Shown: positions 6,757-29,213 of the stretch, piece after piece
How the letters are laid out: every line of letters starts with the position of its first letter
Position numbering within the stretch: the first letter of the stretch is position 1
Source of the DNA: Opitutales bacterium
GTDB taxonomy: Bacteria > Verrucomicrobiota > Verrucomicrobiia > Opitutales > PNEW01
Direction of reading: 5' to 3'
Assembly (NCBI GenBank): GCA_965197745.1
Contig: CBDANS010000007.1
Location: 1,088,001-1,152,000 of the forward strand
Length of the DNA stretch: 64,000 nt
The notes under the pieces: model-generated
What the model was told of the DNA's origin: nothing
Database searches by the model: none
The model's input: only the letters and a program-made list of their open reading frames with translations
Position numbers and translations under genes: made by a program

Positions 6757-6837
6757 TTCAACACTAGCGCAGTGCTGGTGAGTGCTGTGAAGCCGTGAAG
6801 GGGTTTTGATAGGTGGGGGTATTACCTGGATACCCCT
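6757..6837 (+). repeat. Bipartite double-hairpin island repeat, copy 1 (long form)
   Basis: ttca-acactagcgcagtgctggtgagtgctgtg..tgaa-ggggttttgat..gggggtattacctggatacccct. Confidence 0.85.
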
Positions 6838-6853
6838 CTCAATTATTTCCTCA

Positions 6854-9800
6854 CTAATCCAACCCTAGAATCTGCTTTCGTTTTCGCTCAAGTACAATAA
6901 AACGCGGCTCTTTCCGGAGGAAGTCAAAATGTAGCAAATAGAGAGGATAATATTTCTCCTCCTCATAGGCTTGTTCAAGCGCTTCTAAGGTCTTTTCCTT
7001 CTGGCCTAAATTGGCGTAAAGGAAACGTGTCCAATTCAATTTTGCAAAAATAATTTCCAACTCTGGTGTAGCAGACACGGGCTTACCTGTACGCTTATGC
7101 TCTTCTACGAGCGAAACATAGTGCTGCATAGCTTCTTTATTTTCACCTGTAAGCTCAGCCCAGTGAACATACTCGCGTGTGGCATCCTCATACTTTTTTG
7201 CATGAAGATACGCAGCCCCTAAATGTAACCATGTAGTAGCGTTGTTTGAGTCCAGCTCAAGCGATCTCTGCAACTGATTAATAGCCACGTCGTATTGCCG
7301 CGATACTAAGAGCGTTATTCCTAGCATAAATGAGTAATGGGCTGAAAAGGGATCAAGTTCATAAGCCTTTCTCCTTTCATTAAGAGATTCGTCTAAGCGA
7401 TCCGTCAGATATAGCACACTCGCATAGAAGTGGTACGTCGGCGCATACTTTGGATTGAGTTCAATCGCACGCTGAAACTCCCTTTCAGCGCCTTTAAAGT
7501 CTTTCAGAAAATAGTCCTTATAACGCCCCATAGAAGCATGGGCTTCAGCAAGGTTCGGGTCGAGCGCTAGTGCCTTCTTCGCCACTTCTTCGGCTTGTGC
7601 TTTTACATCGCTTTTTTTAACACTAGCTATTTTCATAGGAAGAAAATTATAAACATCCGCGAGCCCAGAGTATGCTAGGGCGTAGTTGGGATCCAAGGCA
7701 ATGGCTTCTTTGAAGTGTTTCATCGCGGCCATTAAATCTTCATCAGTCTGCTGGAAATTTTCACCCCGTTTGTTCCAACGATAACGCCCTAATAGGTATG
7801 CGTTGTAGGCTTCGGTGTTCTCAGTATAGTGCTTTACCAGAGGCGCACCCGCTTCACCCATAAGCTCAACATGAAGAGATTTGGCAATCGCCTGAGAGAT
7901 TTCATCCTGGATGGCGAAGACATTTTTCAGCTCCCTGTTGTAGGTTTCTGACCAAAGATGATGATCGGGTTACGTAAACTGGTCCACCGAGAGAGTTAGT
8001 CTGGAGAGGTTAATGTTGAAGTTAAGTTGGTAGAGGAAGTCAAGGCTTGGGCGCAATGAGGGCGTAGCCCGAATGGAGCCCAAGCCTTCGGTATTAATGT
8101 CTTCAGCGAAGCACCGTGGGGTGATATTGCCGAGGCTGCGGTGGGGTCGGACATTATTGTAAAGCCAGCGCCAGTCCTCGATCACCACGCGGGCTTCGGT
8201 CAAAGTCCATAGCTGTTCACGGTTTAAACACTCCTCGCGAAAACGGGCATGCAACGATTCGATGTATCCGTTCTGCCAAGGGCTTCCTGGTTCGATATAG
8301 AGGGTTTTGATTTTCATCGCAGTTAGCCAGGCTCTCAATTCCTTTTCAATGAATGGCTTCGCATGTCGTCGCTTCGCTCCTCGGAACGGAACCGTTGTCA
8401 CTGCGAATATATTGTGGCGGCCCATGACGGGCAAGCAGTTTTTGCATGATACCGCGCACCGTTTCCGCATTGATATGGCGATCAACATGGATCACTCGAC
8501 ACTCGCGGGTGTACTCATCGAGCACGGTCAACATTTTTAAACTGCCACCGCGGACCGTCTTATCGTGGATAAAATCCCAGGTCCAAACATGGCCGGGATG
8601 TTCGGCCTTGGTCGGCAGCCCGGTGGAAACACCCCTGCCCCGACGTCTTGGCTTGCGTTGGGGGATCGCCAAGCCCAGTTCGCGTCGTAGACCTTGCACG
8701 AGACGTTTACCCACCTCCCAGCCTTCGTCTTTCAACAGCTTCGTGATCTTCGGATAGCCCCACCTGGCATATTGCCGTGATAACCGCCTTACTGCCGCCT
8801 TCAGTTTCATTAACCAAGCATCCGGATGCTTCGCCTTATACGCATAGGTGGAACGGTGCAGCCGAAAGTACCGGCACCCCGCTCGCATCGAACACTGGCC
8901 CCGAGCCACAAGTCTCTCTGCCACTTGCCGCTTGTGCCCAGGGCTTACAGTTTTTTTTCGAGGGTCTCCTGCAGGATCTCTATCCCCAGCATCTTGTCCG
9001 CCAGCATCCGTTTTAACCGCGCGTTCTCCTTCAAAGAGTTCCTTCATCCGCTTGGCCTGGTCGACATCAATCATCCCAAACTCACGCTTCCAGCGGTGGA
9101 AAGTCTGTTCGCTAATGTTGTTCTCGCGGCATGCTTCCAGGATCGTTTTCCCTTTGTCCGCCTGCCGCAGCATCCGTATTTTCTCTTCAGTTGTGTATCT
9201 TTTGCCTTTCATTGTCTGAGTCCTTTCTAGGTTACCCAGACTAACTTTTCAAGTGTACCAGTTTTCGTGGTCACGACCAATGAAAACCATCAGCAACATT
9301 TATAAGCTGTGTCGTGATGCGGAGGTCGTTTCCTGATTTACGCACACTCCCTTCAAGCACCGTTGCAACTTTGAGTTGTTCACCGATTGATGGGATGTCT
9401 AAATTTTCTTCCTTGAATCTGAAGGATGAAGTTCGCGCAGCTACGTGCATACCTGCAATCTTGGTAAATGCATTAATGAGCTCCTCCGCCATCCCCTCAC
9501 AGAAGTATTCCTGATCTTTATTCGGACTCATGTCGTGGAAGGGAAGGACAGCGATGGACTTTATTACAGACTCAGGCTCAGGTGCTTTTCTTAATATTAA
9601 ATAACCGATGACAGTTACCGCTAATAGCAATAAAGGGATCAGTCCCCCCAGGGCTACGTTCCGCCATGTGAAAATCTTATGTCGATGAACCTTTTCCTCT
9701 GTGCCCCCTTCTGTTGCAGCGTCATCAGGATCTGTCTCCTTGGGCTTCGCCCTTTCCTGGACAAACGCGGTAGCCACAACCATTGGGAAGCCGACAAGGA

Positions 9801-9963
9801 GCAACACTATTGCCATAGTTGGTGACCACTCGGGCAAACCGAGACTGGTCGTTAGATGCTGAACGACCTGCAAGACGATCCAGCTGCCAACAAGGTAGAT
9901 TAATATCACCTGCCAAAGTGAACGTCGATGAATCTCGTGTATAAGCTGGGTTAAGCTAGGCAT
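6854..9963 (-). pseudogene. Membrane-anchored TolB-N-like/TPR protein, split by an IS3 element
   Basis: ORF 9271..9963 (3 [21 protein letters not shown]) and ORF 6854..7861 (TPRs) rejoin in frame (..GFHLWSETYNRELKNVFAIQDEIS..) when 7962-9279 and one ATGA are removed; paralog at 16399..18417. Confidence 0.9.
7962..9279 (-). mobile_element. IS3-family insertion sequence (degenerate), 4-bp TSD ATGA
   Basis: TG..CA ends; imperfect IRs TGGTCGTGACCACGAAAACTGGTACAC / TGATCGGGTTACGTAAACTGGTCCAC; ATGA at 7958-7961 and 9280-9283; orfA HTH, orfB DDE (WTWDF, SDNG, PGSPWQNGYIES); A8 slippery run at 8951-8958. Confidence 0.93.
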
Positions 9964-10085
9964 GGCTATTGCAGCAAAAGATGGCGAATGCTTGAGAGGA
10001 ACTGGGTCGTTAGTCTGAAGCCATTGCCTTAAACTGTAAAGGATGAAGCAAACGGCTATGTGAAGGGGCTATCTCACAGCTAACC

Positions 10086-10114
10086 ATTCTCGAGCTTTGA
10101 AGAGCAATGAGCGC
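10086..10114 (+). repeat. Island repeat, left half only (hairpin A)
   Basis: attctcgagctttgaagagcaatgagcgc, similar to copies at 11311 and 19857. Confidence 0.7.
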
Positions 10115-10233
10115 AAGAATGAATTTTTTGATCTTAATAAAACCTTGAAACCAACATCAAATGTTATATTTCTAGGAGGAAGCAGACGTTAGACTGCGGG
10201 GAGACTGAAAGTCACACTTGTGGAAGACATAAA

Positions 10234-11236
10234 ATGACTGAAACTGATGGGTTAATTTGTGCCTATATATTAGACGGCAAGGGCGGTGGTCACCGTATAG
10301 AGTCTTTGCAGCGTCTCACACAGCCGCAGGAGGGCTTTCTCTGGGTTCATCTGCAAAGAACTGGCAAGGAAGCACGGGCGATGGCTATTGGAGAAAAGCG
10401 GTCTAGATTTAGTCATGTGCAACGCTCTGATCGGAACCACAGAAATGTCCACGGAACAATGGATCAAGGAAGGGCATCCCCATAGTATATTTTATAAGAG
10501 CGGTGTCTCGATAATCCTGCGAGGGGTTAACCTCAATCCAGGTGCTGACGTGAACGATATGGTCTCGATCCGTGCCTGGTTTGACTCGGATAAAGTCATT
10601 ACAGTAAGGGAACGCCATATCAAAGCGATCGACGACATCCGGGATCGCATTGCCGAATCGAAGGGTCCGATAGGGCCTGCGGATTTCATGGGTTTACTCG
10701 CTGGACGACTTGGCGATCGAATATCCGAAGCGCTCACAAGTCTACGGGAGGAGATAGACGACTTGGAAGAGGCCGTCATCATCGAACGAGCACCAGCGGT
10801 GGGCAAAAAACTCGGTTCATTGAGGCGGCGAGCCATCGCAAAGCGGCGGCACCTTCTCCCGCAACGCTATGCTTTGTTACAGCTTGCGCAGGAGAAGTTA
10901 TCTTGGATTGAAGATCACCATCGAGCACAGCTCCAAGACATCGCAGACCGCACAGCCCGGCAGGTAGATGATCTTGACGCACTGAGGGAGAGAGCTGCCG
11001 TTATCCAAGACGAGATCATGAACCAACTCTCCGCACGGCTCAACCGCACCATGTATTTGCTGTCTGCCATCGCGGCGATCTTCCTCCCGTTGAGTTTACT
11101 TACGGGACTGTTCGGCATTAATCTCGGGGGTATCCCTGGACGCGACTGGACATGGGCGTTCCCAATCGCTTGTATCGTCTTAGCTCTCACAGCGATTATC
11201 GAAGTGTGGCTTTTCCGGCGTTGGAAGTTGTTCTGA
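10234..11236 (+). CDS. zntB: CorA/ZntB-family divalent cation (Zn) transporter, frameshifted near 10380
   Basis: N-terminus LDGKGGG..FLWVHL in one frame; LRGVNLNPGA..DMVSIR and GLFGINLGGIPG in the next. Confidence 0.8.
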
Positions 11237-11241
11237 ACTTC

Positions 11242-11299
11242 CCTCAGGCTACAACACAGGGCATTATAGGAGACAGACGGAGGGGTTCAATAAACCTCT
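11242..11299 (+). repeat. Degenerate island repeat, tandem to the next copy
   Basis: ctcaggctacaacacagggc resembles the long-form start; gaggggtt-caat-aaacctct hairpin resembles hairpin B. Confidence 0.45.
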
Positions 11300-11310
11300 T
11301 ACAGTTTAAT

Positions 11311-11374
11311 GTTCTCGAGCGCTGAAGAGTGATGAGAGCGTTTTGATGGGCTGGGGTATACCTGGGATACCCCT
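11311..11374 (+). repeat. Island repeat (short form, complete)
   Basis: gttctcgagcgctgaagagtgatgagagcgttttgatgggctggggtatacctgggatacccct. Confidence 0.9.
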
Positions 11375-11447
11375 TGGACGATTTAACAGTTCAGATTGCT
11401 ACCAAATTTTAAGAAATCTTAAACTTATATGAGAGGGTGTGCACTCT

Positions 11448-11741
11448 TCAAACTACTTTATTGATAATATTCCCTATCTCATCAGCCGAAAAGGCCCGCA
11501 GTGTTTGCGTCCGAACATTCCCCAACGATCCGACGCTTAGTCCAAGAGCAGTTATCGACTCATCGTCAGGTGCATCCATGGTTATAACTAAATCGTATTG
11601 GCCCAGAGTCCAGAATATATCTTTAACGGTAACACCAGCATCCTTCGCCATTGACTTGAAAGCTTCAGCTCGTTTTTCCGTTTCCTTAACATTGCGTATT
11701 CCCTGGTCGGTGAAATTTCCAAGCACTATATAATTTGCCAT
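11448..11741 (-). CDS. GYD-domain protein
   Basis: FTDQGIRNV, WTLGQYD, GNVRTQTLRAF. Confidence 0.88.
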   Translation of the reverse strand: MANYIVLGNFTDQGIRNVKETEKRAEAFKSMAKDAGVTVKDIFWTLGQYDLVITMDAPDDESITALGLSVGSLGNVRTQTLRAFSADEIGNIINKVV

Positions 11742-11874
11742 TTTGAACCCCCTTTATTGATGTTATATTGATTACCAGTCACAGTTAAATATTACCCTTT
11801 AAATGTGAAAATCAAGTAATGGGGAAAGGAATATAATTGTCACCCCCCACAAATCCCCCAAGCCCTACCTTCAT

Positions 11875-11912
11875 GTTCTCAAGCCACAGCTAGCGGTGAG
11901 AGCGTTTTGATG
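11875..11912 (+). repeat. Island repeat, left half plus linker, truncated at TTGATG
   Basis: gttctcaagccacagctagcggtgagagcgttttgatg, near-identical to the 19042 copy. Confidence 0.8.
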
Positions 11913-11977
11913 CCACTTTCGCTAATGAGGATGGCATTGACATCAGTGTTACAGTGGAAGAGATGGTGATTGAGTAA
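11909..11977 (+). pseudogene. 22-codon C-terminal remnant of a paralog of the 658-aa protein at 24309..26285
   Basis: Translates as DATFANEDGIDISVTVEEMVIE* versus DATFANEDGDEITVAIDEITIE*. Confidence 0.8.
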
Positions 11978-11995
11978 TCCTAGCTTTAATTTCCA

Positions 11996-12042
11996 CTGCT
12001 TTCAGGACGCAGAGTTTCCCCTTTACCTATGCGGGTTTCAGG
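11996..12042 (+). other. att-like sequence (tRNA-Pro anticodon arm plus flank), inverted copy of 23697-23743
   Basis: 43/47 nt identical to the reverse complement of 23697-23743. Confidence 0.75.
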
Positions 12043-12120
12043 GGCAGTTGCCAGAAAACAGAATATTTGGCAACTATTGTGAATTTTCAACTACTCGCGA
12101 TAGGTTCTGAGATCAAAATG

Positions 12121-12510
12121 TTAATTTATATTTTTGCTTTGGGAAAGCATTATTTTGATTACTTTCTTAACATCATTCGATGATAGAATGGAATGAAGAG
12201 ATCTAATAAATTCTTCTTCATTTTCGACTTTATATTCTTCATTTGATATTTCGTTAAAAATTTTTAGAGGATAAAGAAAAAGTGGCTGTTCAATACGGAG
12301 CACGGTTACACTATAGTCGTCTAAATTTTGTGCTAAGATATCAAGTCTGATAGTGATTGTATTTGCAGATATGATGGGCCAAACTTGTCCTCTAAGAGTT
12401 CCATTTGTCTGTGTTCCTAAAATTTCTGCTTGCTTTTTGAGTATTGTAAATGGCGGTGTTATGTCATCACCAGTTGGCAGATCACCCCATAAATTTTCAT
12501 CTTTATTCAT
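12121..12510 (-). CDS. Hypothetical protein (AT-rich)
   Basis: 129-aa ORF with upstream AAAGGA RBS; no family recognised. Confidence 0.6.
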   Translation of the reverse strand: MNKDENLWGDLPTGDDITPPFTILKKQAEILGTQTNGTLRGQVWPIISANTITIRLDILAQNLDDYSVTVLRIEQPLFLYPLKIFNEISNEEYKVENEEEFIRSLHSILSSNDVKKVIKIMLSQSKNIN

Positions 12511-12602
12511 GATAGCACCATCCTTTCTATCTCAATTTCAAAATCAAGGGGAAAATGGTCATCGCCAATGTCATAATGCGTATGATCGAGGTCAAACGTA
12601 AA

Positions 12603-12789
12603 GGGTCAGACTGCGAATTCTTTGATTTTATTCAAAGTTCTGTAGGCTTTACTTCTGTTCTTCTGCTCACGCCGAAAGATACTAACATAGAGTTCGTCGT
12701 TACTTTCAATCCTTGGCTTTCGAGCCATTCTCTCGCAATTCCAGTTCTCCCATAGTTTCTTATAAATCAAAGAATTCGCAGTCTGACCC
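12603..12789. repeat. REP/MITE-like element with 26-bp perfect inverted ends (GGGTCAGACTGCGAATTCTTTGATTT)
   Basis: 12603-12628 is the reverse complement of 12764-12789. Confidence 0.8.
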
Positions 12790-14362
12790 GAATGGCGTTA
12801 AGATAAGGGATAGAATGAGTGCAATAGATGCTTGTACAGGGACCGTTGGAGAGCTACCCTAACGAGCATGCAAAAACAAAACTTAACTCGTTATTTTCCA
12901 GGATTTAATCAGGTCCTGTTCGGTCGTGCTCCCCGAACAGCCCTTGCACAGATGGAGGGTAAGCTGGTAGAAATACGGCGGTCAAGTCTTTCCGAGCTAT
13001 CGGATATCTTCGGGCAGTGGGTGCCGCAAAAGTATTTACACCGGAAGCCTCGAGGGGCTAACAGCCGGCGGAGATTGTTCAGCCAAAACGTGACCTTCTG
13101 GGCATTTTTGTTCCAAGTGCTCTCACCACGGACTGCCTGCCGGGAAGTGGTGCGCAAGCTCCAGAGCTATTGCAGCATGAAGGGGCTGAAGTTGGCTAAA
13201 GGAACGGCCTCGGCCTACTGTCAGGCGAGGCAACGGCTGTTGGTGCAAGACCTGCACGGGATCCATGAAGCGATCAGTGAAGAGGTGGCCGGGAGAGTGA
13301 CCGACGATCAACGGTGGAAAGGTCACGAGGTAAAAGTGGTCGACGGCACGGGTATCGCCACCGCCGATACGCCGTGCTTGCAGAGGTGTTACCCACAGCC
13401 TTCGCAGCAACGAAGCGGCTGCGGCTTTCCGGTGGTGAAGCTGGTGGGCTGTTTTTCTTTAGCCAGTGGGGCGCTTTTACACTGGATGGAGTCCTCACTA
13501 AGGCATCATGACAGTGTGCTGTTGCGGGGCATGATCGGATTTTTTCAAAAGGGTGATGTGGTCCTTGCCGACCGGGGATTTTGCTCTTACCTCAATATTG
13601 CCCTGCTTAAAGGCCGCGGTGCTGAAGCGGTCATGCGTTTGCATCAGCAACGAAGAAGCGACTTTCGTCAGGGCAGGTCCTTGGGTAGGTATGACCGGCT
13701 GATCATGTGGAAGAAGCCGCAAAATGTCTTCGGCTTCAGTCGCGAGCAGTGGCGGCAAATCCCTGATGAGATCCCCGTACGGCTGGTGAAGATTTTCATT
13801 TTCATCAAAGGTTTCCGCGCCCATAGCGTAGACCTCGTGACTACCTTGAGCGATCCTCACCAATACTCCCACCACGATCTCGGAGAATTATACTATCGGC
13901 GCTGGGCAGTGGAGCTTTACTTTCGCCACATCAAAACCACCATGGGGATGGAGATCCTGCGCTCTCGCTCGGTCGCTCTCGTGCGCAAAGAGATTGCGAT
14001 GTTTGCCATCGCCTACAATCTCTCATCCGCGCTCTTTTGCAGCAAGCTGCCAGTGCCTTCCACCGCGACCTCTCCCGGCTAAGCTTCAAGGGGGCTGTTG
14101 ACACCCTCCGCCAATATCAAAGTGCGCTCGCGGCCACCCGGTTTAATCCCAGAGCCCAACGATCTGTCATTGACGAGATGATACACCTCATTGCCCTCGA
14201 ATCGGTCCCCCTACGTCCCTTCCGATACGAACCAAGAGTCCTCAAACGTAGACCTATACCTTTCCAACGATTGACTCATCCACGAGCCATGATGACCGTC
14301 TCTGCTTCACGAAAAAACAAAGGCTTTTATCATCCTAAACCACCCTTATCTTAACGCCATTC
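12790..14362 (+). mobile_element. IS4-family element, 20-bp perfect IRs, 11-bp TSD; transposase frameshifted near 14020
   Basis: IR GAATGGCGTTAAGATAAGGG (12790-12809 / 14343-14362); TSD CAGTCTGACCC (12779-12789 / 14363-14373); VVDGT, LADRGF and YYRRWAVELYFRHIK (YREK) motifs. Confidence 0.94.
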
Positions 14363-14384
14363 CAGTCTGACCCTATTTCTTCTG

Positions 14385-14466
14385 CCCAGCCACAGCACAG
14401 TGCTGGTGAGTGCATATCAAGGCGTGAGGACGTTTTGATTGGGAAGGTATACGCCTAGATACCCCT
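14385..14466 (+). repeat. Island repeat (long form)
   Basis: cacagcacagtgctggtgagtgc..gtgaggacgttttgattgggaaggtatacgcctagatacccct. Confidence 0.85.
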
Positions 14467-14543
14467 TGATCTAAAAAAATGCTCAATATATTTTAGTTCT
14501 AAGAGAAGCAAATTAAGATAGATACAGAAGGAGGTGAACGACC

Positions 14544-14942
14544 ATGAGGAAAGAAGAAAATGTAAACATAGTGCGGGAAATTTACGCGAACTTTGGTCGG
14601 GGGAACATCCCTAGCATACTGAATGTCCTAGCGGATGATATTGTGTTTAAGCAGCCGACAGCAGGTCCATCACCGCTTGCTGGCACTTATCATGGACCTG
14701 AGCAAGTCGGAGAATGGTTTGGCAAGTTGGATGAAGTGGCAGAATCTCAGAACTTCGAGCCTCGAGAGTTCATCGCTCAGGGAAACAAGGTAATCGTCCT
14801 AGGTTACTACAAGTTTCTGGCAAAACCCACAAATAAAACATGGGAAGCTGAGTGGGTGATGGTATGGACTTTCAAAGAGAGCAAGGTAGTAGGGTTCCAG
14901 TTCTTCGGTGATACTGCTGCTGAAACCGCAGCTTTCTCATGA
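14544..14942 (+). CDS. SnoaL/NTF2-like family protein
   Basis: ENVNIVREIYANFGRGNI, GTYHG, EFIAQGNKVIVLG; AGGAGG RBS. Confidence 0.85.
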   Translation: MRKEENVNIVREIYANFGRGNIPSILNVLADDIVFKQPTAGPSPLAGTYHGPEQVGEWFGKLDEVAESQNFEPREFIAQGNKVIVLGYYKFLAKPTNKTWEAEWVMVWTFKESKVVGFQFFGDTAAETAAFS

Positions 14943-14970
14943 AGCTAGTTTCTCCCAGTCTTAACTTAGT

Positions 14971-15036
14971 ATTCTCGAGTACTGAAGAGCGATGACGACG
15001 TTTTTATGAGTGGGGGTATACCTAGGGGATCCCCCT
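14971..15036 (+). repeat. Island repeat (short form)
   Basis: attctcgagtactgaagagcgatgacgacgtttttatgagtgggggtatacctaggggatccccct. Confidence 0.85.
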
Positions 15037-16370
15037 TAAAATCCAAGGACACGAAAAGCTAATCCTGGCCGCATGAGGCTTTCTGGTGGTTTAACCAAGG
15101 ACAATGTATCCAGCAACGCCCGTCGGACTTCTAACCTTTTTTCGGCTTTGGCAAACAGACGTTTAACATACCAATTGATAAAATTCAGTTTCAAAGGTCT
15201 TCTGCCACGGGTCTGTGGATAAGCAAGATCAGACCCAGAAGTCAGTTCCCACGCCCAGTTTGCGCCAACGTTACCCATCTGGCTCCGAAATCTATCTGAA
15301 AATCCATTCAGGGTGCTGCCTTTTTCGGCGAGAGCTGAGAGACTATTCCACAGGAACACACCCTCTTTAGCAGCCTTTGTCATGCCTTGGCCATAAATTG
15401 GATTAAGTTTACATACTGCATCACCCATGACTAATAATCTATCAGGAAAAGTCTTCAGGCGATCGAAACGTTGTAAGTGGCACGATGGGATCCGGTAGCT
15501 TCTGAACTCCGAAACTGGTGTGGCATTTTGAAGGAATTCTGAAATATCGGGTGCATCCAATTTTTGAGCGAAAGCTTGGAAACCAGCGTCGTCTGAAGGG
15601 GCATTCTCACCGAAGTATCCCCAAAGAGTTACAATCCATTGATTGTCTTCAACTCTCTCCATTACACCCCCGAGCCATCCCTTAGGCGCATTCGGATTGA
15701 GTAAAAGCAAATTCCAATCAGGTGAAAATTCTGGAGCTTTGAAAAGGCGACTGGTGTAAGAAATGTCAACCTCTACAATTTCTGTTTCAGGTGCATCAAA
15801 ACCCAAGCCAAGCAACTCTTTCGGTAGTGTGGATGCACTACCACGAGCATCAACTGTGAGATCGGAGTCGAGTTGAATTTCTTTATCTGGACCCCTGGCA
15901 ACAATGCCCATGACGCTTTTTCCTGATGGATCGGTTATCCACTCTGAGAATCTATAACCCTGCATGAACTCGACATTATTAAGACCTGCTACATATTGCC
16001 TAAGGTAGTATTCGTAAAACGGTCGGGTCGATCCGATAAAAGTTTGGTTGGTTTCTCCTCGTGCCAACCATTTGCCGAAATGTCTCCACTTCAATTCACT
16101 TCCTCCATCAAAGATGTGTGCCCCATTAGAAACCAGTTGCTCAATTACCTCTGGCATTAACTGCTTTAAAGCTTCGTAAGAGGGTGGTAATATTCCGTGA
16201 ATGTGATTCCCTTGTGGCACTCCCTTTCGTGGACTAAAATGTGTCTCCAAGTTGTCCCTCTCGACAACAACAACTCTCTCGAAGAAGTCAGCCAATGCAC
16301 GAGCCGCGAAAAGTCCAGCGACACTTGCGCCAACAACTACAGCTTGACTGGAAAGCAAATGTTTAGCCAT
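15036..16370 (-). CDS. FAD-dependent monooxygenase/oxidoreductase
   Basis: GASVAGL, RKGVPQGNHIH, DARG, GDAVCKLNPIYGQGMT. Confidence 0.88.
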   Translation of the reverse strand: MAKHLLSSQAVVVGASVAGLFAARALADFFERVVVVERDNLETHFSPRKGVPQGNHIHGILPPSYEALKQLMPEVIEQLVSNGAHIFDGGSELKWRHFGKWLARGETNQTFIGSTRPFYEYYLRQYVAGLNNVEFMQGYRFSEWITDPSGKSVMGIVARGPDKEIQLDSDLTVDARGSASTLPKELLGLGFDAPETEIVEVDISYTSRLFKAPEFSPDWNLLLLNPNAPKGWLGGVMERVEDNQWIVTLWGYFGENAPSDDAGFQAFAQKLDAPDISEFLQNATPVSEFRSYRIPSCHLQRFDRLKTFPDRLLVMGDAVCKLNPIYGQGMTKAAKEGVFLWNSLSALAEKGSTLNGFSDRFRSQMGNVGANWAWELTSGSDLAYPQTRGRRPLKLNFINWYVKRLFAKAEKRLEVRRALLDTLSLVKPPESLMRPGLAFRVLGF

Positions 16371-16386
16371 AACCTAACATACCCCT
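16368..16386 (+). repeat. Island repeat, right-end remnant (..ATACCCCT)
   Basis: tacccctctcaa context is identical to 6831-6842; both precede the stop of a TPR paralog. Confidence 0.55.
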
Positions 16387-16398
16387 CTCAAATATAAC

Positions 16399-18417
16399 TT
16401 ACTCCTCCAACCCCACCTTCCTCACAAGCTCTATGAAACGGGGATCTGATCGAAGAAAGTCAAATGCTGGCGTTATCTTTAAGAATCTAAGAATAACACC
16501 TCGGTGCTCGTAGACTTGCTCAAGAAACTCCAAGGTTTGTTCCTTTTCGTTTAACTCAGCATATAGCAAAGCGAATGCATAATAGGGTGGAAATCCATGC
16601 CTCGCAATAATAGCTTTTTTCTGCGCTTGCTCGAGTGATTCTAAAGCTTTTTCCTTCTGCCCCATTTTGACATAGAAGTGAGCAAGATAATAATCAGGGT
16701 CCTTATTTTTCTCGGAGTATATGAAGTTTCTATAGTCTAGACCATTGAATTCAAGAAAACATACACCGATTTTAGGATCAGCCTCGAGTTTGGGTGGAAG
16801 AGACATTGGGATTCCTGTCCGTTTATACTTGATCACATTTTTACAGAAAAGCCACAACGTTTCCTCATCTATAGAGATAGCCTTCTGCTCAGACCACCGA
16901 CTGAACGCATCGACAGCCTCGTCAATCCTTTCAGCCTTAAGATGTAATACCCCTATATTATTCAAATACCATTGTACTGCCTGGCGTTCCGGGTAAAGCA
17001 TGATTGTCTTTTCATACTGCTGAATAGCTGCATCGTCCTGTCCTGCAATTTCAAGCAACATTGCGAGCGCACCATTGTAGGTGTGAGATATAGGATCCAA
17101 CTCCAAGGCCTTATTTCCTCCCATCAAAGCCTCATCAAAACGACCCATGCTCGCCAGCATCATCGAATACCAATGGTGTGTGTCCGCATATTCCGGGTTT
17201 GAATCAATGGCCAGCAGAAATTCCTTTTCGGCACCACGCATGTCGTAGCTGTTACGCTTCATAAAACCAAGGAGGGCATGAGCTTCGGCAAGGTTCGGGT
17301 CAAGAGTGAGAGCATTCTCCAATGCTTCTTGGCTTTGTGTGATGTAGTCCTTTCTAAATGCAATTCTTTCAGCTACTGATATGTTTTCTGGAGGACGGTT
17401 TTGCGAAAAGAGAATAGCACTAGCAAGACCAGAGTATGCGAGCGCATAGTTTGGATCCAAGGCAATGGCCTCCTTGAAGTGTTTAATTGCAGTTTTTAAA
17501 TATTCCGTTGTCTGCTCATCCGTGACGATTCGTTTGTTCCAAAGATAAAGACCTTGAAGGTAATGGTCGTAAGCTTCGATATTTGTAGTCGAGAGTTTAA
17601 TTAAAGGAGCACCTGCTTTACCTATGAGTTTAACATGAAGTGCATTGGCAATTGCCTGTGAGATTTCATCTTGGATGGCGAAGACGCTCTTTAACTCTCG
17701 TTCATAAGTCTTCGACCAGAGATGAAAGTTATCAGCAGCATTGTTAAGTTGAGCTGTGATCCGGATGGAGTTTCCCTCCTTTCGCACGCTCCCTTCGAGC
17801 ACGGTTGTGACGTTGAGTTGCTCGCCAATCGTGGATATGGCCTCATTTCTGAGACGAAACGAAGAGGTTCGAGCAGCTACACGCAACCCTTCGACCTGAG
17901 CGAGAGCGTTCAGGATTTCCTCTGCCATACCCTCGCCGAAGTATTCCTGATCTTTATTCGGGCTCATGTCGCGGAAGGGGAGGACGGCGATGGACTTAAT
18001 CACAGACTCCGGTTCAGGCTCGGGCTCCGGTGCAGGTGCATTTCTCATTATTAAATACCCAATGACAGTTACCGCTAACAGCAATAATGGGATCAGACCG
18101 CCCAGGGCTGTGTTCCGCCATGTGAAAATCTTATGCCGATGAACCTTTTCCTCAGTGCCCCCTGTCGTTGAAGTGTCATCATCACCTGTCTGTTGGGGCT
18201 TTACCCTTTCCTGGACAAAGGCTGTTGCCACAACCATCGGGAAGCCGACAAGGAGCAACACTATTGCCATTGTTGGAGACCACTCAGGTAAACCGAGACT
18301 GGTCGTTAAATGCTGAACGACCTGCAAGACAATCCAACTGCCAACAAGGTAGATTAATATCACCTGCCATAGTGAACGTCGATGAATCTCGTGGATAAGC
18401 TTGGTTAAGCTGGGCAT
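16399..18417 (-). CDS. Membrane-anchored TolB-N-like/TPR-repeat protein (intact paralog)
   Basis: 3 N-terminal TM segments, SIAVLPF..DQEYFGEGMAEEILNAL, multiple ALDPNYALAY-type TPRs, FDFLRSDPRF tail. Confidence 0.88.
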   Translation of the reverse strand: MPSLTKLIHEIHRRSLWQVILIYLVGSWIVLQVVQHLTTSLGLPEWSPTMAIVLLLVGFPMVVATAFVQERVKPQQTGDDDTSTTGGTEEKVHRHKIFTWRNTALGGLIPLLLLAVTVIGYLIMRNAPAPEPEPEPESVIKSIAVLPFRDMSPNKDQEYFGEGMAEEILNALAQVEGLRVAARTSSFRLRNEAISTIGEQLNVTTVLEGSVRKEGNSIRITAQLNNAADNFHLWSKTYERELKSVFAIQDEISQAIANALHVKLIGKAGAPLIKLSTTNIEAYDHYLQGLYLWNKRIVTDEQTTEYLKTAIKHFKEAIALDPNYALAYSGLASAILFSQNRPPENISVAERIAFRKDYITQSQEALENALTLDPNLAEAHALLGFMKRNSYDMRGAEKEFLLAIDSNPEYADTHHWYSMMLASMGRFDEALMGGNKALELDPISHTYNGALAMLLEIAGQDDAAIQQYEKTIMLYPERQAVQWYLNNIGVLHLKAERIDEAVDAFSRWSEQKAISIDEETLWLFCKNVIKYKRTGIPMSLPPKLEADPKIGVCFLEFNGLDYRNFIYSEKNKDPDYYLAHFYVKMGQKEKALESLEQAQKKAIIARHGFPPYYAFALLYAELNEKEQTLEFLEQVYEHRGVILRFLKITPAFDFLRSDPRFIELVRKVGLEE

Positions 18418-18539: not shown

Positions 18540-18565
18540 ATTCTCAAGCTTCAGCAAGAGAGTTT
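18540..18565 (+). repeat. Island repeat, left-half remnant
   Basis: taaccattctcaagc context matches 10081-10095. Confidence 0.55.
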
Positions 18566-18680
18566 ACAGAATTGCTTGATCCTATCGCTTCTATGAATAG
18601 GATGCCCAGTTAGCAGATGCGAAGAAGATAACTACAATATTTTAGGCCCCTTTACCCATCTCAACAATCAGGAGATTATA

Positions 18681-19022
18681 ATGATCTTTGAGATACGAAA
18701 CTATCATTTCAATCCAGCTCTTTTTGAATCCTACAAACAATGGGCAAAGAGCGAGGCGACTCCATATTTATTTAGCAAACTCGACATTGTTGGCTTCTGG
18801 GTAAATACCAGTGACGAACCTGAAGTAAGGGGCCAGCCGCAAGACGATCTCGGATCAGCTAATATCACGTGGATTATCCGATGGAATGATATGGAACATC
18901 GGAATAGAGTTCTCCCTGATGTTCTTTCAAGCCCTGAATGGCAGACAATTTTCACCAGAGTTCCTGGTGGTAGAGCAAGCTATCTGCGCATAGAGTCCAA
19001 ATTTGCAGAGTCTCTTCAGTGA
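18681..19022 (+). CDS. NIPSNAP-family protein
   Basis: IFEIRNYH, IVGFW, WIIRWNDMEHR; AGGAG RBS. Confidence 0.75.
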   Translation: MIFEIRNYHFNPALFESYKQWAKSEATPYLFSKLDIVGFWVNTSDEPEVRGQPQDDLGSANITWIIRWNDMEHRNRVLPDVLSSPEWQTIFTRVPGGRASYLRIESKFAESLQ

Positions 19023-19041
19023 CAGCACTTCCTAACGTCTT

Positions 19042-19103
19042 GTGTCAAGCTACAGCGAGCGGTGAGAGCGTTTTGATGGGCTGGGGTATAGCTGAATACC
19101 CCT
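19042..19103 (+). repeat. Island repeat (short form)
   Basis: gtcaagctacagcgagcggtgagagcgttttgatgggctggggtatagctgaatacccct. Confidence 0.88.
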
Positions 19104-19163
19104 TGGGCTAACCAGCATTTTAAAATATTGTGGTCCCTACGAGAATAGGTTATTACGGATTGT

Positions 19164-19850
19164 ATGCAATCTAAGGTTGGAGCTGTTTCTGCAATTGCAG
19201 GAGCTATTATTCTGCTCGTTGGAACTTCCCTACATCCTATGGAGGAAGATCCAAACGATCCAGTTGCCGCATTTACAGAATACGCAGATGACTCACTGTG
19301 GGTAGGCAGTCATTTAACTCAGTTACTAGGCATCGTTTTAATTGTAGCAGCACTTCTTACACTAACCCACCTATTGACTAATGATAAAGGTGGCGGGTGG
19401 TCACAGTTTGGCTCAGCGTTTGCTATTTCTAGTTTGGCCATTGCAGCGGCTCTTCAAGCTGTAGATGGTATTGCGCTAAAGGTGATGGTAGACAATTGGG
19501 TGGCTGCACCAGAATCAGAGAAGATGGCTATTTTTCATGCTACAATTGGCGTCAGGCAAGTTGATGTAGGACTGGCCAGCATGTTCAGTATGTTTATCGG
19601 TTTAACTGTGGTGCTGTATGGTGTATCTATTGTGATGACCGATCGGTTTCCGAGCTGGCTAGGGTTGATCGCAATCTTTGGTGGCGGTGCGACAGTAACA
19701 GCTGGTGTAATGTATGCGTATACGGGGTTTTCAAAAGTAGCAATGTCTGTAAGCATGCCAGCAAGCTTGTTACTATTGCTTTGGTTGATTGTTCTTGGGG
19801 TAAGAATGTGGCGAGTAAGTAACAAATGTAATATTACACCCCATTCATAG
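19164..19850 (+). CDS. Integral membrane protein (DUF4386-like)
   Basis: About 6 hydrophobic helices, LHP..W...H motif. Confidence 0.6.
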   Translation: MQSKVGAVSAIAGAIILLVGTSLHPMEEDPNDPVAAFTEYADDSLWVGSHLTQLLGIVLIVAALLTLTHLLTNDKGGGWSQFGSAFAISSLAIAAALQAVDGIALKVMVDNWVAAPESEKMAIFHATIGVRQVDVGLASMFSMFIGLTVVLYGVSIVMTDRFPSWLGLIAIFGGGATVTAGVMYAYTGFSKVAMSVSMPASLLLLLWLIVLGVRMWRVSNKCNITPHS

Positions 19851-19856
19851 CTTACC

Positions 19857-19920
19857 ATTCTCGAGCGCTGAAGAGTGATGAGAGCGTTTAGTTAGCAGAG
19901 GGTATAGCTTATTTACCTTC
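19857..19920 (+). repeat. Island repeat (short form)
   Basis: attctcgagcgctgaagagtgatgagagcgtttag..gagggtatagcttatttaccttc; hairpin A matches the 11311 copy. Confidence 0.85.
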
Positions 19921-19952
19921 AGTGACAAAACGCTGTGGTTACTCGCTGTCGC

Positions 19953-20042: not shown

Positions 20043-20050
20043 ACAACTCC

Positions 20051-27274: not shown

Positions 27275-27500
27275 CCGACGACCTGCAGAACTACCCAACT
27301 GCCAATAAGGTAGATTACTATCACCTGCCAATGTGAACGTCGATGGATCTCGTGGATAAGCTGGGTTAATCTGGGCATGGTAAATGCAGCAAAAGATGGC
27401 GAATGCTTGGGAGGAACCAGGTCGTTAGGCTGAAACCATTAGCTTAAACTGTAAAGGATGAAGCAATCGACTGAGTAAGGGGGGCATTTTGACCCAATCG
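27271..27500 (-). pseudogene. Third, truncated copy of the TM-TPR gene (35 codons) plus its conserved upstream region
   Basis: [35 protein letters not shown] from ATG 27378; upstream matches 9964-10085 and 18418-18540; ends in a repeat remnant ttttcaagcc. Confidence 0.85.
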
Positions 27501-27560
27501 TTTTCAAGCCGTAGTAAGAGGAAACTCTATGGGGTCGGGGTGTAGTCTTAACTTTTATTA

Positions 27561-28400
27561 TTAATTATTCATCGCTTCGATAAAGCCCCAATCATCTAAC
27601 CATTTTATCCAGCGTGCTCGCTTCTCACTGCCATCGGGATTTTCCAACCACCACGGATGATAGTATGGCGAATCGTGCAAATCCATTCTCGAACTGATGG
27701 ATTTGGCATTTTCCGCCAGCGCGCGCAGTTCCTCTTCTTCTTGAGCCGTCTTTGGATTGCTGTAAAAAGCTAGTGAACAGTTCCTGCGGTCTTCATAACC
27801 CCCAAAAGCCGCGTGCCATAATCTCTGGTTAAAAGTGATGACATCACCCGGCTGCGAACAGAATATATAAGCGGGGATATCTTCACCACGCATGCCCGAC
27901 TCATTTCGAAATGTTTCTTCGTTATCATCAGATATACTCAACCCTATGCGAATCAGTTCATCGAATAAGGGACTAATATGCGAACCCGGAATTAAACGCA
28001 ATGATCCGTGGTCACCGGAGGTGGGTTGCAGATAGGTGAGGTTTTTGAGACCGCGAATATGCCGCTGTATCATATCCGGGTGCCAGAGGGTGTCATGTCT
28101 ATAGCTGTGGGCATTGGAATACACGGGGACCGTGTCTTCTCCTTGTAATTGCTCCGTTGGCACACAAATGCGCGGATCTTCCAAAAGACCCGCCATTAAT
28201 GGTGTTTCTGGAATGAGGTTAGACCAATTAGGCCATTTACGGGTACGGAGATCTATCTTTTTATCAAAATCATCTTTAATCGTGTCGAGATGCTGATCGA
28301 ACTCCTTGTTGATCCGGTCAATTTCCTCGCGGCTGAAGACCCGGCGACGGATAAGAAAACCGAAGATTTCAAAATGCTGGATCTCTTGTTCGGTGAGCAT
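27561..28400 (-). CDS. PhyH-family Fe(II)/2OG dioxygenase
   Basis: MLTEQEIQHFEIFGFL, WHPD, IPGSH, WHAAFGG. Confidence 0.88.
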   Translation of the reverse strand: MLTEQEIQHFEIFGFLIRRRVFSREEIDRINKEFDQHLDTIKDDFDKKIDLRTRKWPNWSNLIPETPLMAGLLEDPRICVPTEQLQGEDTVPVYSNAHSYRHDTLWHPDMIQRHIRGLKNLTYLQPTSGDHGSLRLIPGSHISPLFDELIRIGLSISDDNEETFRNESGMRGEDIPAYIFCSQPGDVITFNQRLWHAAFGGYEDRRNCSLAFYSNPKTAQEEEELRALAENAKSISSRMDLHDSPYYHPWWLENPDGSEKRARWIKWLDDWGFIEAMNN

Positions 28401-28494
28401 GACTTTCCTAAGGGGTTGAATTTATTTATGAGGCAAAATAGAACTTGAAACAACTTTATTTGCGTTTCCAACTAACCAGCGCTGACTCATAATT

Positions 28495-28580
28495 ACTCTC
28501 AGGCACAGCGCAGTGCTGACGAGTGCTGTGGAGGCGTGAGAGGGTTTTTAGAAGTGAGGGTATACAAATTAGATACCCCT
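28495..28580 (+). repeat. Island repeat (long form)
   Basis: ctctcaggcacagcgcagtgctgacgagtgctgtggaggcgtgagagggttttt..gagggtatacaaattagatacccct. Confidence 0.88.
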
Positions 28581-28715
28581 TGCGTAAAAAAGAAGATATA
28601 GAATATTTAGCGGTTACTCTTATAATACCTGGCGTGATAGAAGATCAACTCTGAGCTAGAGAAAAGCATAGTAAGAAACCAATTAATGAGTCACTAAATA
28701 TAAGGAAAAATACCA

Positions 28716-29126
28716 ATGTCTATACGTGTGTTTGGATGTAATCATATCGTTCTCGAAGTCGGTGATCTCGATAAAGCAATCGAATTTTACACTGACGTTT
28801 TTAATCTTGAGCCAAAAAATGAAGGTGAAGGTGATGCTTTTTTCCAACTTGGCAATCATCAGTTCTTAGCACTATTTCATTCTGATGATCCTCACGTTGA
28901 CAAGCATAGACATTTCGGCCTCATGGTTCGAGATGACGCACAAGTTTCAGAAATTCGTGAGAAGATTAGTAAGAAATATGGATTAAAGACGATTCCGCCG
29001 TTTCGGTGTGATTTCCGAGACCCTTGGGGAAACCGGATTCAAGTGGTTGACATGCATGATGAATCGACTGCTTGGCTACAGCCATACGAAGAGGTTCAGA
29101 AGGTCGGCGCAAAACTGCCAGAATAA
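28716..29126 (+). CDS. VOC/glyoxalase-family protein
   Basis: NHIVLEVGDL..FY, HFGL, DPWGNRIQV. Confidence 0.85.
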   Translation: MSIRVFGCNHIVLEVGDLDKAIEFYTDVFNLEPKNEGEGDAFFQLGNHQFLALFHSDDPHVDKHRHFGLMVRDDAQVSEIREKISKKYGLKTIPPFRCDFRDPWGNRIQVVDMHDESTAWLQPYEEVQKVGAKLPE

Positions 29127-29213
29127 TTTCATGCTATCCTACAGCTTAGTGCGAGGGCATGCTGTAGCTATGTGAGAGGGTATATTTTGACTGGGGTATA
29201 CCTGGATACCCCT
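29127..29213 (+). repeat. Island repeat (long form, last copy seen)
   Basis: tacagc..gctgta stem, gtgagaggg..ttttgactggggtatacctggatacccct. Confidence 0.82.

What the first reader, a model, noticed from the sequence alone, without database searches (positions are those of the whole stretch)
6757..29213. Cassette-like array delimited by an unrecognised co-oriented double-hairpin repeat (candidate non-integron gene-capture system)
Seen: eight complete copies (6757, 11311, 14385, 14971, 19042, 19857, 28495, 29127) and about six partial or degenerate copies (10086, 11242, 11875, 16368, 18540, 27500) of a 60-90 bp motif. All are on the + strand and confined to the island downstream of tRNA-Gly; I saw none elsewhere in the window. 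The structure is hairpin A (base TTCTC/GAGAG, varying to TTCA/TGAA and CTCA/TGAG, with a short or long arm), a G/CGTTTT linker, then hairpin B GGGGTAT-N6-9-ATACCCC with a variable loop. Consecutive copies often bracket exactly one unrelated gene (GYD, SnoaL, FAD monooxygenase, TM-TPR, NIPSNAP, membrane protein, VOC) in either orientation, tightly against stop codons (14942, 15036, 19022, 19850, 29126). Established: attC sites carry RYYYAAC..GTTRRRY and their cassettes are usually co-oriented; neither holds here. Inference: these are recombination or junction sites of mobile single-gene units ([hairpin B]-gene-[hairpin A]) stacked in tandem. Conserved fold with variable sequence suggests recognition as folded ssDNA by an HUH or tyrosine recombinase encoded elsewhere.
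Basis: partly seen in the sequence, partly recalled or inferred. Interest (0 to 1): 0.9.

Follow-up and report, generated by a model that had tools for sequence, protein, structure and literature searches.

The report
Bipartite junction repeat between swappable genes
A roughly 85-base repeat found only in one family of marine Opitutales bacteria sits at the joints between single accessory genes that are swapped between genomes; it behaves like a recombination site but is not an integron site, and the enzyme that would use it is unknown.

Summary
The repeat is real: the 8 complete copies are confirmed, all on the + strand, inside a 28.7-kb island that two related genomes lack between tRNA-Gly and the next core gene. 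It is not confined to the island: 14 of 23 copies in this genome lie elsewhere, on both strands, and two sister genomes carry 21 and 18. It was found in 0 of 57 other genomes of the same order, including the 8 with integron integrases. It fails the attC tests, matches no Rfam family and is not terminator-like. "Conserved fold, variable sequence" is not supported: hairpin A shows no covariation, and hairpin B is a conserved 7-bp inverted repeat. The [B]-gene-[A] reading is supported by comparison. A GYD module occurs 6 times with different neighbours, and homology runs only from core+B to A+core. A 998-bp module is present or absent exactly after the core GCGTTTTGATG. Synteny between two sister species breaks between A and B. 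Module DNA is 92-97% identical between genera whose core DNA is 72% identical. Half copies keep the core, as attL/attR sites do. No recombinase could be tied to the repeat, and the local RAYT-like gene has its own different repeat. Best reading: an att-like junction site of mobile gene modules (about 0.5). Main rival: a REP/BIME-like repeat shuffled by homologous recombination.

The parts
6419..6492 (+). tRNA-Gly(CCC), the left anchor of the island. In G001 and G002 it lies about 380 bp from the RRM-protein gene that sits at window 35319 here.
6757..6843 (+). Full copy (A - core - B). It is the first joint of the array, and B ends 14 nt before the stop codon of the TPR gene.
6854..9963 (-). 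TM-TPR module. The gene is split into 6854-7861 and 9271-9963 by an IS3-family element at about 7962-9279. It is a paralogue of 16399-18417.
10078..10150 (+). Degenerate copy: hairpin A, then a decayed linker and B.
10388..11236 (+). CorA-like transporter module.
11299..11380 (+). Full copy and the best match to the family model.
11448..11741 (-). GYD-domain module. Relatives of this module occur 5 more times in G001 and G002, each time as core+B - GYD - A+core.
11862..11912 (+). Half copy (A + core, no B). Module X starts directly after GTTTTGATG.
11913..12602 (-). Module X (129-aa ORF at 12121-12510). It is 96-97% identical to G001 and G002 copies, and it is present or absent as a 998-bp unit at another locus.
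12603..14382 (.). Insertions into module X: a REPIN-like doublet of GGGTCAGACTGCGAATTC (12603-12789), then an IS4-family element (about 12790-14382).
14385..14472 (+). Full copy (long-arm form).
14544..14942 (+). SnoaL-like module.
14957..15040 (+). Full copy. B overlaps the stop codon of the FAD-enzyme gene.
15036..16370 (-). FAD-dependent oxidoreductase module.
16379..16395 (+). Remnant: the right arm of B (ATACCCC) plus the flank shared with the copy at 6757. The left arm has been replaced.
16399..18417 (-). Intact TM-TPR module.
18540..18600 (+). Degenerate copy (A only).
18681..19022 (+). Small module with a weak NIPSNAP match (E 0.003, below Pfam's cut-off).
19030..19110 (+). Full copy.
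19164..19850 (+). DUF4386 membrane-protein module.
19843..19926 (+). Full copy with a decayed B.
27278..27560 (+). A 206-nt fragment of the TPR module's 5' end, followed by a degenerate copy.
28495..28586 (+). Full copy (long-arm form).
28716..29126 (+). Glyoxalase/VOC module.
29131..29220 (+). Full copy and the last joint of the array.
29221..30584 (-). A remnant of the 3' end of a surface-protein gene (29221-29310) plus the BNR-repeat module (29343-30584). The stretch from 29189 onward is 87% identical to G001, where only B precedes it.
30585..35222 (.). The rest of the island (PEP-CTERM protein, SDR, glycosyltransferase), with no repeat copies. The right island boundary is at about 35222.

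Best explanation
The repeat is a three-part junction site: an A arm (about 40 nt), a core (GCGTTTTGATG) and a B arm (GGGGTAT-loop-ATACCCC). It marks the joints between small mobile gene modules. Each module in its integrated form reads core+B - gene(s) - A+core. Two adjacent modules therefore recreate a full A-core-B site, and a module next to unrelated DNA leaves a half site (A+core or core+B). This is the logic of attP versus attL/attR in integrase systems, and of tandem accretion of integrase-less elements.

Shown: the modules, their boundaries, their different neighbours, and their recent exchange between genera. Inferred: that joining happens by recombination at or just 3' of the core, catalysed in trans by a recombinase encoded elsewhere. 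That enzyme is not identified. Loose candidates are a 239-269-aa serine recombinase and a 400-aa tyrosine recombinase that lie near several copies. Whether the substrate is double-stranded or folded single-stranded DNA is open.
For: 1. GYD module. There are 6 occurrences in 3 genomes, with 5 different left and 5 different right neighbours. Among the 5 G001/G002 units, mean pairwise identity is 0.82 (core+B), 0.86 (body) and 0.81 (A). It is 0.62 in the 60 nt before the left core and 0.57 in the 60 nt after the right core, against a baseline I put at roughly 0.5 for this aligner (not measured; the 60 nt before the left core contain A-type repeat in some units).
2. Module X (998 bp) is present in G002 (L057 7325-8322) and absent in G000 (L019 6639/6642). 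Both flanks are homologous, and the indel starts right after GTTTTG(A/G)TG. The same left joint is seen in 4 contexts.
3. G002 L060 and G001 L061 are 96% identical from hairpin B rightwards. Hairpin A and everything to its left are unrelated.
4. The BNR module is shared with G001 starting at B.
5. Every half copy I inspected keeps the core (profile positions 42-52) or a decayed version of it (L055 10603-10661, L034), except one weak A-only fragment at C6:285884.
6. Module DNA is 92-97% identical to G001/G002, against 72% for the core flanks.
7. Copies form co-oriented arrays around single genes in G001, G002 and 2 of the 7 metagenome contigs (L078, L083); L079 holds 5 copies or halves in mixed orientation.
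8. The repeat is restricted to one family: 4 of 4 genomes of that family against 0 of 57 others in the order. A scan of about 185,000 species genomes with a 25-nt degenerate pattern found one Opitutales MAG only.
Against: No recombinase gene lies in the island or on the 7 metagenome contigs (0 of 31 ORFs). Joint positions are not one sharp point: they range from just before TGAGAGC to the loop of B. 14 of 23 copies in this genome lie outside arrays, on both strands. 6 of those 14 sit just behind the stop codon of a multi-copy surface-protein gene family, and one metagenome copy lies beside an ATP-synthase operon. The 'core is always kept' pattern is partly an ascertainment effect, because fragments without the conserved core are hard to detect. 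Contigs of runs from two further studies show the same module order, with no trustworthy alternative joints. The empty tRNA-Gly site in G001 and G002 holds no core-like sequence, and there is no tRNA direct repeat at the island's far end. Neither hairpin has meaningful covariation support.
Confidence: 0.5

Rival explanations
1. A REP/BIME-like, lineage-specific extragenic repeat (structural, mRNA-end or protein-binding element) that travels with the ends of genes. The cassette-like pattern then arises because homologous recombination between copies, within and between genomes, reshuffles the genes between them. No dedicated site-specific system is involved.
For: Copies lie on both strands across the genome (14 of 23 outside the island). 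They are always intergenic and often directly behind stop codons, sometimes next to core genes. Copy numbers are similar in sister genomes (23, 21 and 18). The repeat is conserved in sequence rather than in fold. No linked recombinase was found. Module order is stable across samples.
Against: Homologous exchange between full copies would leave full copies, with crossover points spread along 85 nt. Instead there are half sites (A+core joined to unrelated DNA, or core+B alone), and three independent breaks fall between A and B. The copy number is low for a REP family and is concentrated: 9 of 23 copies lie in 0.5% of the genome. No copy scores as an intrinsic terminator (0 of 17 terminator-like sites). 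The repeat is not a REPIN-type inverted doublet.
Confidence: 0.3
2. A divergent integron remnant: a cluster of attC sites lacking an integrase (CALIN), whose attC sites have drifted from the canonical form.
For: The array consists of single, small accessory genes of types common in integron cassettes (VOC, SnoaL, GYD, GNAT). Integron integrases exist in the order (8 of 61 genomes over the cut-off). A minority of copies carry TAAC five bases before hairpin A, which resembles an R'' box with its spacer. The core begins with GTT.
Against: There is no R''/R' pair in a constant register: only 5 of 7 matches, 3 of them forced, at varying positions. The majority residue at the would-be R'' is TTAG, not AAC. 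The site is two side-by-side hairpins, not one. The module boundary splits the site in the middle rather than 6 nt from its end. No genome of the family has IntI over the cut-off. The repeat model finds nothing in the 8 IntI-bearing genomes of the order. About half the genes face away from A.
Confidence: 0.07
3. The repeats are ends of non-autonomous single-strand (HUH/Y1, IS200/IS605- or RAYT-type) elements. Hairpin B would be the left end and hairpin A the right end, each inserted 3' of the TTGATG at the end of the previous element.
For: The layout is hairpin-plus-short-tail at both module ends, and insertion falls directly 3' of a fixed short sequence. The top strand folds as well as or better than the bottom strand in 6 of 8 copies, thanks to G-T pairs. 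RAYT-like Y1 genes (327-347 aa) lie in or next to arrays in G001 and G002.
Against: Those RAYT-like genes are flanked by their own inverted repeat GGGTCAGACTGCGAATTC, which also forms about 187-bp doublets (12 copies in G000). They therefore already have a different REPIN family. The copy in G000 is split (198 + 171 aa). A and B are unrelated in sequence, whereas one Y1 enzyme normally reads similar hairpins at both ends (established for IS608; recalled, not tested). Hairpin A has no covariation support. Orientation is mixed within 4 kb in G001, so there is no strict replication-strand bias.
Confidence: 0.08

Closest known systems
Integron cassette arrays and CALINs (clusters of attC sites lacking an integrase; Cury et al. 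2016, PMC4889954, passages read)
   Same: Co-oriented repeats bracket mostly single small accessory genes. Modules are found in many contexts and shared between genomes. No integrase is nearby, as in a CALIN.
   Different: There are no R''/R' boxes and no single long hairpin. The site is split in the middle by the module boundary, so each module carries B at one end and A at the other. Genes face either way. No IntI occurs in the family, and the repeat is absent from the IntI-bearing relatives searched.
Tandem accretion of integrative elements and cis-mobilizable elements (CIMEs) bounded by attL/attR (review PMC5704250, passage read)
   Same: A common core is present at every joint. There are full sites between neighbours and half sites at the outer ends. 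The elements lack their own integrase. Arrays start about 250 bp after a tRNA gene in two loci; in a third, L078, the nearest copy lies about 1 kb from the tRNA, with an ORF between.
   Different: Modules are tiny (0.5-2 kb, one gene), not decayed ICEs or IMEs. The core is not part of a tRNA or gene end, no tRNA direct repeat is present, and no integrase sits at an array end.
REP / BIME / REPIN families with RAYT transposases
   Same: A lineage-specific, palindrome-containing, strictly intergenic repeat found behind stop codons on both strands.
   Different: Only about 20 copies per genome, and clustered. The two hairpins are unrelated and in tandem, not an inverted doublet. The family's RAYT-like genes are flanked by a different repeat.
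Xer-dependent dif modules (pdif modules of Acinetobacter plasmids; recalled, not read here)
   Same: Single-gene modules are bounded by short recombinase sites and found in many contexts without a dedicated recombinase nearby. XerC and XerD are present in all four genomes of the family.
   Different: The sites here are co-oriented, about 85 nt long and bipartite, not 28-bp dif-like sites in alternating orientation. A fuzzy search with a recalled proteobacterial dif consensus found nothing in this genome. That search says little for Verrucomicrobiota.

Membership tests
Integron attC site / CALIN | R'' (RYYYAAC) and R' (GTTRRRY) boxes, complementary to each other and at a constant place in the site | tested here: not met
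   The naive R''/R' scan over 6000-30000 gave only 5/7 matches (one candidate 6/7; 3 of the 7 are forced), at varying registers. The majority residue at the candidate R'' is TTAG, and TAAC occurs in a minority of 28 copies.
Integron attC site / CALIN | One imperfect hairpin (R and L boxes, unpaired spacer, variable terminal structure) formed by the bottom strand | tested here: not met
   DNA folds give two separate hairpins. The top strand is as stable or more stable in 6 of 8 copies. The pairing of hairpin A is no better than in shuffles.
Integron attC site / CALIN | At least two sites close together, bracketing mostly single ORFs | tested here: met
   8 full and several partial copies lie around single genes in 6757-29220.
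Integron attC site / CALIN | Crossover at the 3' edge of the site, so that a cassette carries nearly the whole site at one end | tested here: not met
   Module homology runs from core+B to A+core, so the site is split between neighbouring modules.
Integron attC site / CALIN | Score above threshold with the IntegronFinder attC covariance model | not testable with these tools
   No attC model is held. Rfam has no match here at E up to 1.
Integron (complete) | IntI (TIGR02249 over the cut-off) in the genome or next to the array | tested here: not met
   Best hit 80 bits against a cut-off of 265 in G000. None in G001-G003 at E 1e-30 or better; 8 of 61 genomes of the order do have it.
REP/REPIN with RAYT | The RAYT gene is flanked by copies of the same REP | tested here: not met
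   RAYT-like genes (NF047646 at 59-66 bits, cut-off 80) are flanked by GGGTCAGACTGCGAATTC in inverted orientation, not by this repeat.
REP/REPIN with RAYT | Many dispersed extragenic copies, typically as inverted doublets | tested here: not met
   There are 23 copies, 9 of them in one 22-kb array. The unit is two unrelated hairpins in tandem.
IS200/IS605-type ends (HUH Y1) | Similar subterminal hairpins at both ends, and an intact Y1 transposase available | tested here: not met
   A and B share no similarity. G000 has only a split RAYT-like gene and one weak hit.
att sites of integrase-type elements / CIME accretion | An identical core at all joints, with full sites between tandem elements and half sites at outer joints | tested here: met
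   The inspected half copies are A+core or core+B (a few with a decayed core; one weak A-only fragment at C6:285884). Full copies lie between modules. Caveat: detection is biased towards the conserved core.
att sites of integrase-type elements / CIME accretion | An integrase gene at one end, and a target inside a tRNA or gene end that is duplicated as a direct repeat | tested here: not met
   No recombinase in the island. No second copy of the tRNA-Gly 3' end at up to 3 mismatches. No core-like sequence in the empty site of G001/G002.
Intrinsic (Rho-independent) terminator | A G+C-rich stem followed by a T run | tested here: not met
   0 of the 17 terminator-like sites in 10000-29500 coincide with a copy.

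The most novel reading that the evidence does not exclude
These Opitutales carry a gene-cassette system that is independent of integrons. Single-gene modules would circularise to form an A-core-B site and be inserted at the core of resident sites by a trans-acting recombinase, perhaps the small serine recombinase found 16 nt to 6 kb from several copies. This would build arrays next to tRNA genes and spread modules between genera.
Probability: 0.35. Interest if true: 0.85.

Novelty: new variant of a known kind. Interest (0 to 1): 0.6.

Why it matters
Integrons are the only well-understood machinery that stacks single promoter-poor genes into swappable arrays. If a second, unrelated site type does the same job in Verrucomicrobiota, gene capture by short junction sites is more general than the IntI/attC system. 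In that case, screens based on attC models miss part of the cassette pool of marine and host-associated bacteria. The concrete material here makes this testable: a defined 11-nt core, full and half sites, one present/absent module, and one module seen in six contexts.

Tried and rejected
- Rfam scan of 6000-31000 at E up to 1: only the tRNA and two chance hits.
- Canonical attC features: not found. I tried to extract real attC arrays next to IntI genes of three genomes of the order for a comparison model. No repeat arrays were visible in the 12-20 kb held, so no attC model was built.
- Covariation for two alternative hairpin-A structures: none, or marginal.
- RAYT link: rejected, because the RAYT-like genes have their own flanking repeat.
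- tRNA-fragment accretion: the repeat does not resemble tRNA-Gly, and there is no second tRNA end.
- dif-like site: a fuzzy search with a recalled proteobacterial consensus found nothing; this is weak evidence.
- Terminator role: not flagged.
- Sequencing runs: no RNA holder is listed. Only Logan contigs were available, which break at every copy. The few low-depth joints have sides of 30-38 nt and probably come from other copies of the repeat. No circle junction or order variant can be claimed or excluded.
- Orthologous empty sites for two outside copies: the searches were swamped by multi-copy genes and IS elements and gave no clean comparison. A third G001/G002 comparison was not cleanly orthologous.
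- Recombinase association: homologues of a 239-aa serine recombinase lie 16 nt (G001), 0.8 kb, 3 kb and 6 kb (G000) from copies, sometimes with a 400-aa tyrosine recombinase 3 kb away. One of the 4 G000 homologues is 126 kb from any copy, these regions are rich in mobile DNA anyway, and no repeat half-site bounds these genes. This is a lead, not a finding.
- Earlier notes of this scan: no look-alike by sequence.

Full report
WHAT IS THERE. The window is G000:C7:1088001-1152000 of a 4.45-Mb, 7-contig genome with 45% G+C. Earlier notes of this scan call it an uncultured Opitutales bacterium (Verrucomicrobiota). In my own calls, the only record in the 185,000-species collection that carries the repeat pattern is titled 'MAG: Opitutales bacterium'. 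By its length and coordinates that record is the sister genome G001.

The exact hairpin-B pattern occurs 4 times in the window against 0 in 100 shuffles and nowhere else in the genome. Of the 'partial' copies:
- 11875 is a real half copy.
- 10086, 18540 and 27500 are decayed copies attached to the repeated 5' end of a TPR gene.
- 16368 keeps only the right arm of B.
- 11242 is not a copy.

The consensus over 28 near-full copies from three genomes is ..CACAGCTTAGTATTCTCGAGCGCTG..GAGTG.TGAGAGCGTTTTGATGGGCTGGGGTATACCT..GATACCCCTTG... I call the left part A, GCGTTTTGATG the core, and the GGGGTAT/ATACCCC palindrome B.

THE SETTING. The left flank (recR, tRNA-Gly; window 2152-6493) and the right flank (from 35222; RRM-protein gene) are adjacent in G001 and G002, about 380 bp apart, at 72% and 82% identity. 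Window 6500-35220 is therefore a 28.7-kb island. It holds:
- single accessory genes: TM-TPR twice (one split by an IS3), CorA, GYD, a 129-aa ORF, SnoaL, an FAD enzyme, a weak NIPSNAP-like ORF, DUF4386, VOC and BNR;
- a block of PhyH and amidohydrolase genes;
- an IS4;
- no recombinase other than IS transposases.

There is no second copy of the tRNA end and no core-like sequence in the empty site of the relatives.

The repeat is not confined to the island. Of the 23 matches in this genome, 9 are in the island (all +) and 14 are elsewhere (6 on +, 8 on -), with a loose second group at C7:1.46-1.51 Mb. Six of the 14 lie directly behind the stop codon, in convergent orientation, of a multi-copy family of Ig-like surface proteins that share a conserved C-terminal region. 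A truncated end of such a gene also follows the copy at 29131.

The family is narrow. G001 has 21 matches, G002 has 18, and the fragmentary G003 has 1. None was found in 57 other genomes of the order. A degenerate 25-nt pattern hit one species genome and 7 metagenome contigs, two of which (L078, L083) carry co-oriented arrays.

IS IT A KNOWN ELEMENT? Nothing matches in Rfam at E up to 1.

attC is ruled out on its defining features:
- There are no complementary R''/R' boxes in a constant register.
- The residue pattern at the would-be R'' is mostly TTAG.
- The site forms two hairpins rather than one.
- No IntI occurs in the family, although 8 of 61 genomes of the order have one.
- The repeat model finds nothing in those IntI-bearing genomes.

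I could not run the IntegronFinder attC model. The attC features I tested against are those described in PMC4889954 (passages read).

The repeat is not terminator-like.

The fold claim fails. For hairpin A together with B, 74.8% of cells pair against 76.5% in shuffles, and 2 pairs change on both sides against 5.1 expected. An alternative A helix is marginal. B is 84% paired because its arms are conserved, with one co-varying pair. The commonest pairs at three A positions are G-T, so only the top strand, or an RNA, could form that helix. Without covariation this is weak.

THE HUH LEAD. RAYT-like Y1 proteins of 327-347 aa (NF047646 at 59-66 bits, below the cut-off of 80) lie in or beside arrays of G001 and G002. 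A split copy exists in G000. But each is flanked by inverted copies of GGGTCAGACTGCGAATTC. That motif has 12 copies in G000, mostly as pairs about 170 bp apart, one pair at window 12603-12789. This is a classical RAYT/REPIN relationship with a different repeat, so it does not explain the double-hairpin repeat.

EVIDENCE THAT THE REPEAT IS A JOINT BETWEEN MOBILE MODULES.
(a) Island segments match G001 and G002 at other places at 92-97% identity, while the core flanks are 72% identical. The modules have therefore moved between genera recently.
(b) The GYD module occurs six times in three genomes, with different left neighbours (CorA, Yip1, TPR twice, a resolvase gene, a 132-aa ORF) and different right neighbours (module X twice, an ADH, a surface-protein gene, DksA-like, FloA). 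Among the five G001/G002 units, identity is 0.82-0.86 from core+B through the gene to A. It falls to 0.62 and 0.57 outside.
(c) Module X starts right after GTTTTGATG in four contexts. At one locus it is present in G002 and absent in G000 as a 998-bp unit, with homologous flanks on both sides.
(d) Between two sister species, L060 and L061 are 96% identical from B rightwards and unrelated from A leftwards.
(e) The BNR module is shared with G001 from B onwards.
(f) Half copies are either A+core or core+B. Full copies sit between two modules.

This is the layout expected if a circular module carries one A-core-B site and recombines at the core with a resident site. It mirrors attP against attL/attR, and the tandem accretion of integrase-less elements described for CIMEs (PMC5704250, passage read). 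Arrays begin about 250 bp after a tRNA gene here (tRNA-Gly) and in G001 (tRNA-Arg); on one metagenome contig the nearest copy lies about 1 kb from a tRNA-Ser, with an ORF between.

WHAT SPEAKS AGAINST A DEDICATED SYSTEM. No recombinase is linked. None lies in the island, and none among 31 ORFs on the metagenome contigs. The joints are not at one base: left ends of core+B copies start before TGAGAGC or before GCGTTTT, and right ends of A+core copies stop after GATG, after the left arm of B, or in its loop. Detection favours fragments that keep the conserved core. Many copies are solitary and lie behind genes. Contigs of runs from two other studies show the same order with 0-5 differences, and the few extra joints are too short to trust. 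A lineage-specific REP/BIME-like repeat that is reshuffled by homologous recombination therefore remains a serious rival. It does not easily produce the half sites or the three breaks between A and B.

A LEAD ON THE ENZYME. Homologues of a 239-aa serine recombinase (catalytic domain at the N terminus, helix-turn-helix at the C terminus) end 16 nt before a copy in G001, at the point where the array orientation flips. In G000 they lie 0.8, 3 and 6 kb from copies, and a fourth lies 126 kb away. A 400-aa tyrosine recombinase lies about 3 kb from several of them, and in G001 about 0.3 kb from a full copy by my estimate of its start codon from the position of the domain match. These regions are full of mobile DNA, and I found no half site bounding these genes. 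I therefore treat this as a candidate for a bench test only.

VERDICT. The cassette-joint interpretation is supported by comparative evidence. The proposed ssDNA/HUH mechanism is not supported. The element is not a member of any family I could test. It works most like att-type junctions of accreted, integrase-less modules, on the scale of integron cassettes.

My odds are: att-like junction site of mobile modules 0.5; REP/BIME-like repeat with homologous shuffling 0.3; HUH-type ends 0.08; divergent CALIN 0.07; other 0.05. Other agents of this scan have reported non-canonical cassette-joint repeats in other lineages. I did not test those, and they are not evidence for this case.

Noticed in passing
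window 12603-12789; G000 C6:162757-163803; L055:2778-3803; L051:10396-11379: A separate RAYT/REPIN-like system. Y1 (RAYT-like) genes of 327-347 aa carry a roughly 190-aa C-terminal extension and are flanked by inverted GGGTCAGACTGCGAATTC. The same motif forms about 187-bp doublets (12 copies in G000), one of them inserted into module X in the window. The G000 gene is split (198 + 171 aa).
   Followed up: partly
L019:6642-6800; L057:8322-8480; L060:5182-5337; window about 12589-12602: A second small inverted-repeat element with ends like GTGGCATAAGGGGTCAAACGTAGAATTTAAAT (about 156 bp). In G000 it is found directly after the core of a half copy, and it also lies beside modules in G002.
   Followed up: no
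window 23539-23696: A 158-nt second copy of the 3' part of recR, 91% identical to the genome's own recR at 6165-6322. It lies inside the island, next to a fragment resembling module X (23700-23890).
   Followed up: partly
window 20051-20108 and 22098-22155: A 58-nt direct repeat (93% identical) flanks the amidohydrolase + PhyH pair. A copy also exists in G001 (L055 11397-11457). It may be another kind of module joint or a shared promoter region.
   Followed up: no
window 24309-25184 (3' part of the 658-aa ORF on the - strand): The C-terminal roughly 290 codons belong to a multi-copy family, with dozens of copies at 76-88% nucleotide identity in G001 and G002. This is the same conserved C-terminal region that ends the surface-protein genes lying behind six solitary repeat copies.
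   Followed up: partly
L055:9401-10120 (G001); G000 C4:18580, C5:214225, C6:172742, C6:684875: A family of small serine recombinases (239-269 aa) is often paired with a 400-aa tyrosine recombinase about 3 kb away. One sits exactly where the repeat orientation flips in a G001 array.
   Followed up: partly
L008:7394-7825 (G000 C6): An ORF with a Thoeris ThsB-like TIR domain lies between a solitary repeat copy and a serine recombinase gene.
   Followed up: no
window 2-769 (- strand, runs off the window start): This is the N-terminal part of a 429-aa tyrosine recombinase that has at least 5 copies in G000. It is separated from the island by core haem-biosynthesis genes.
   Followed up: no
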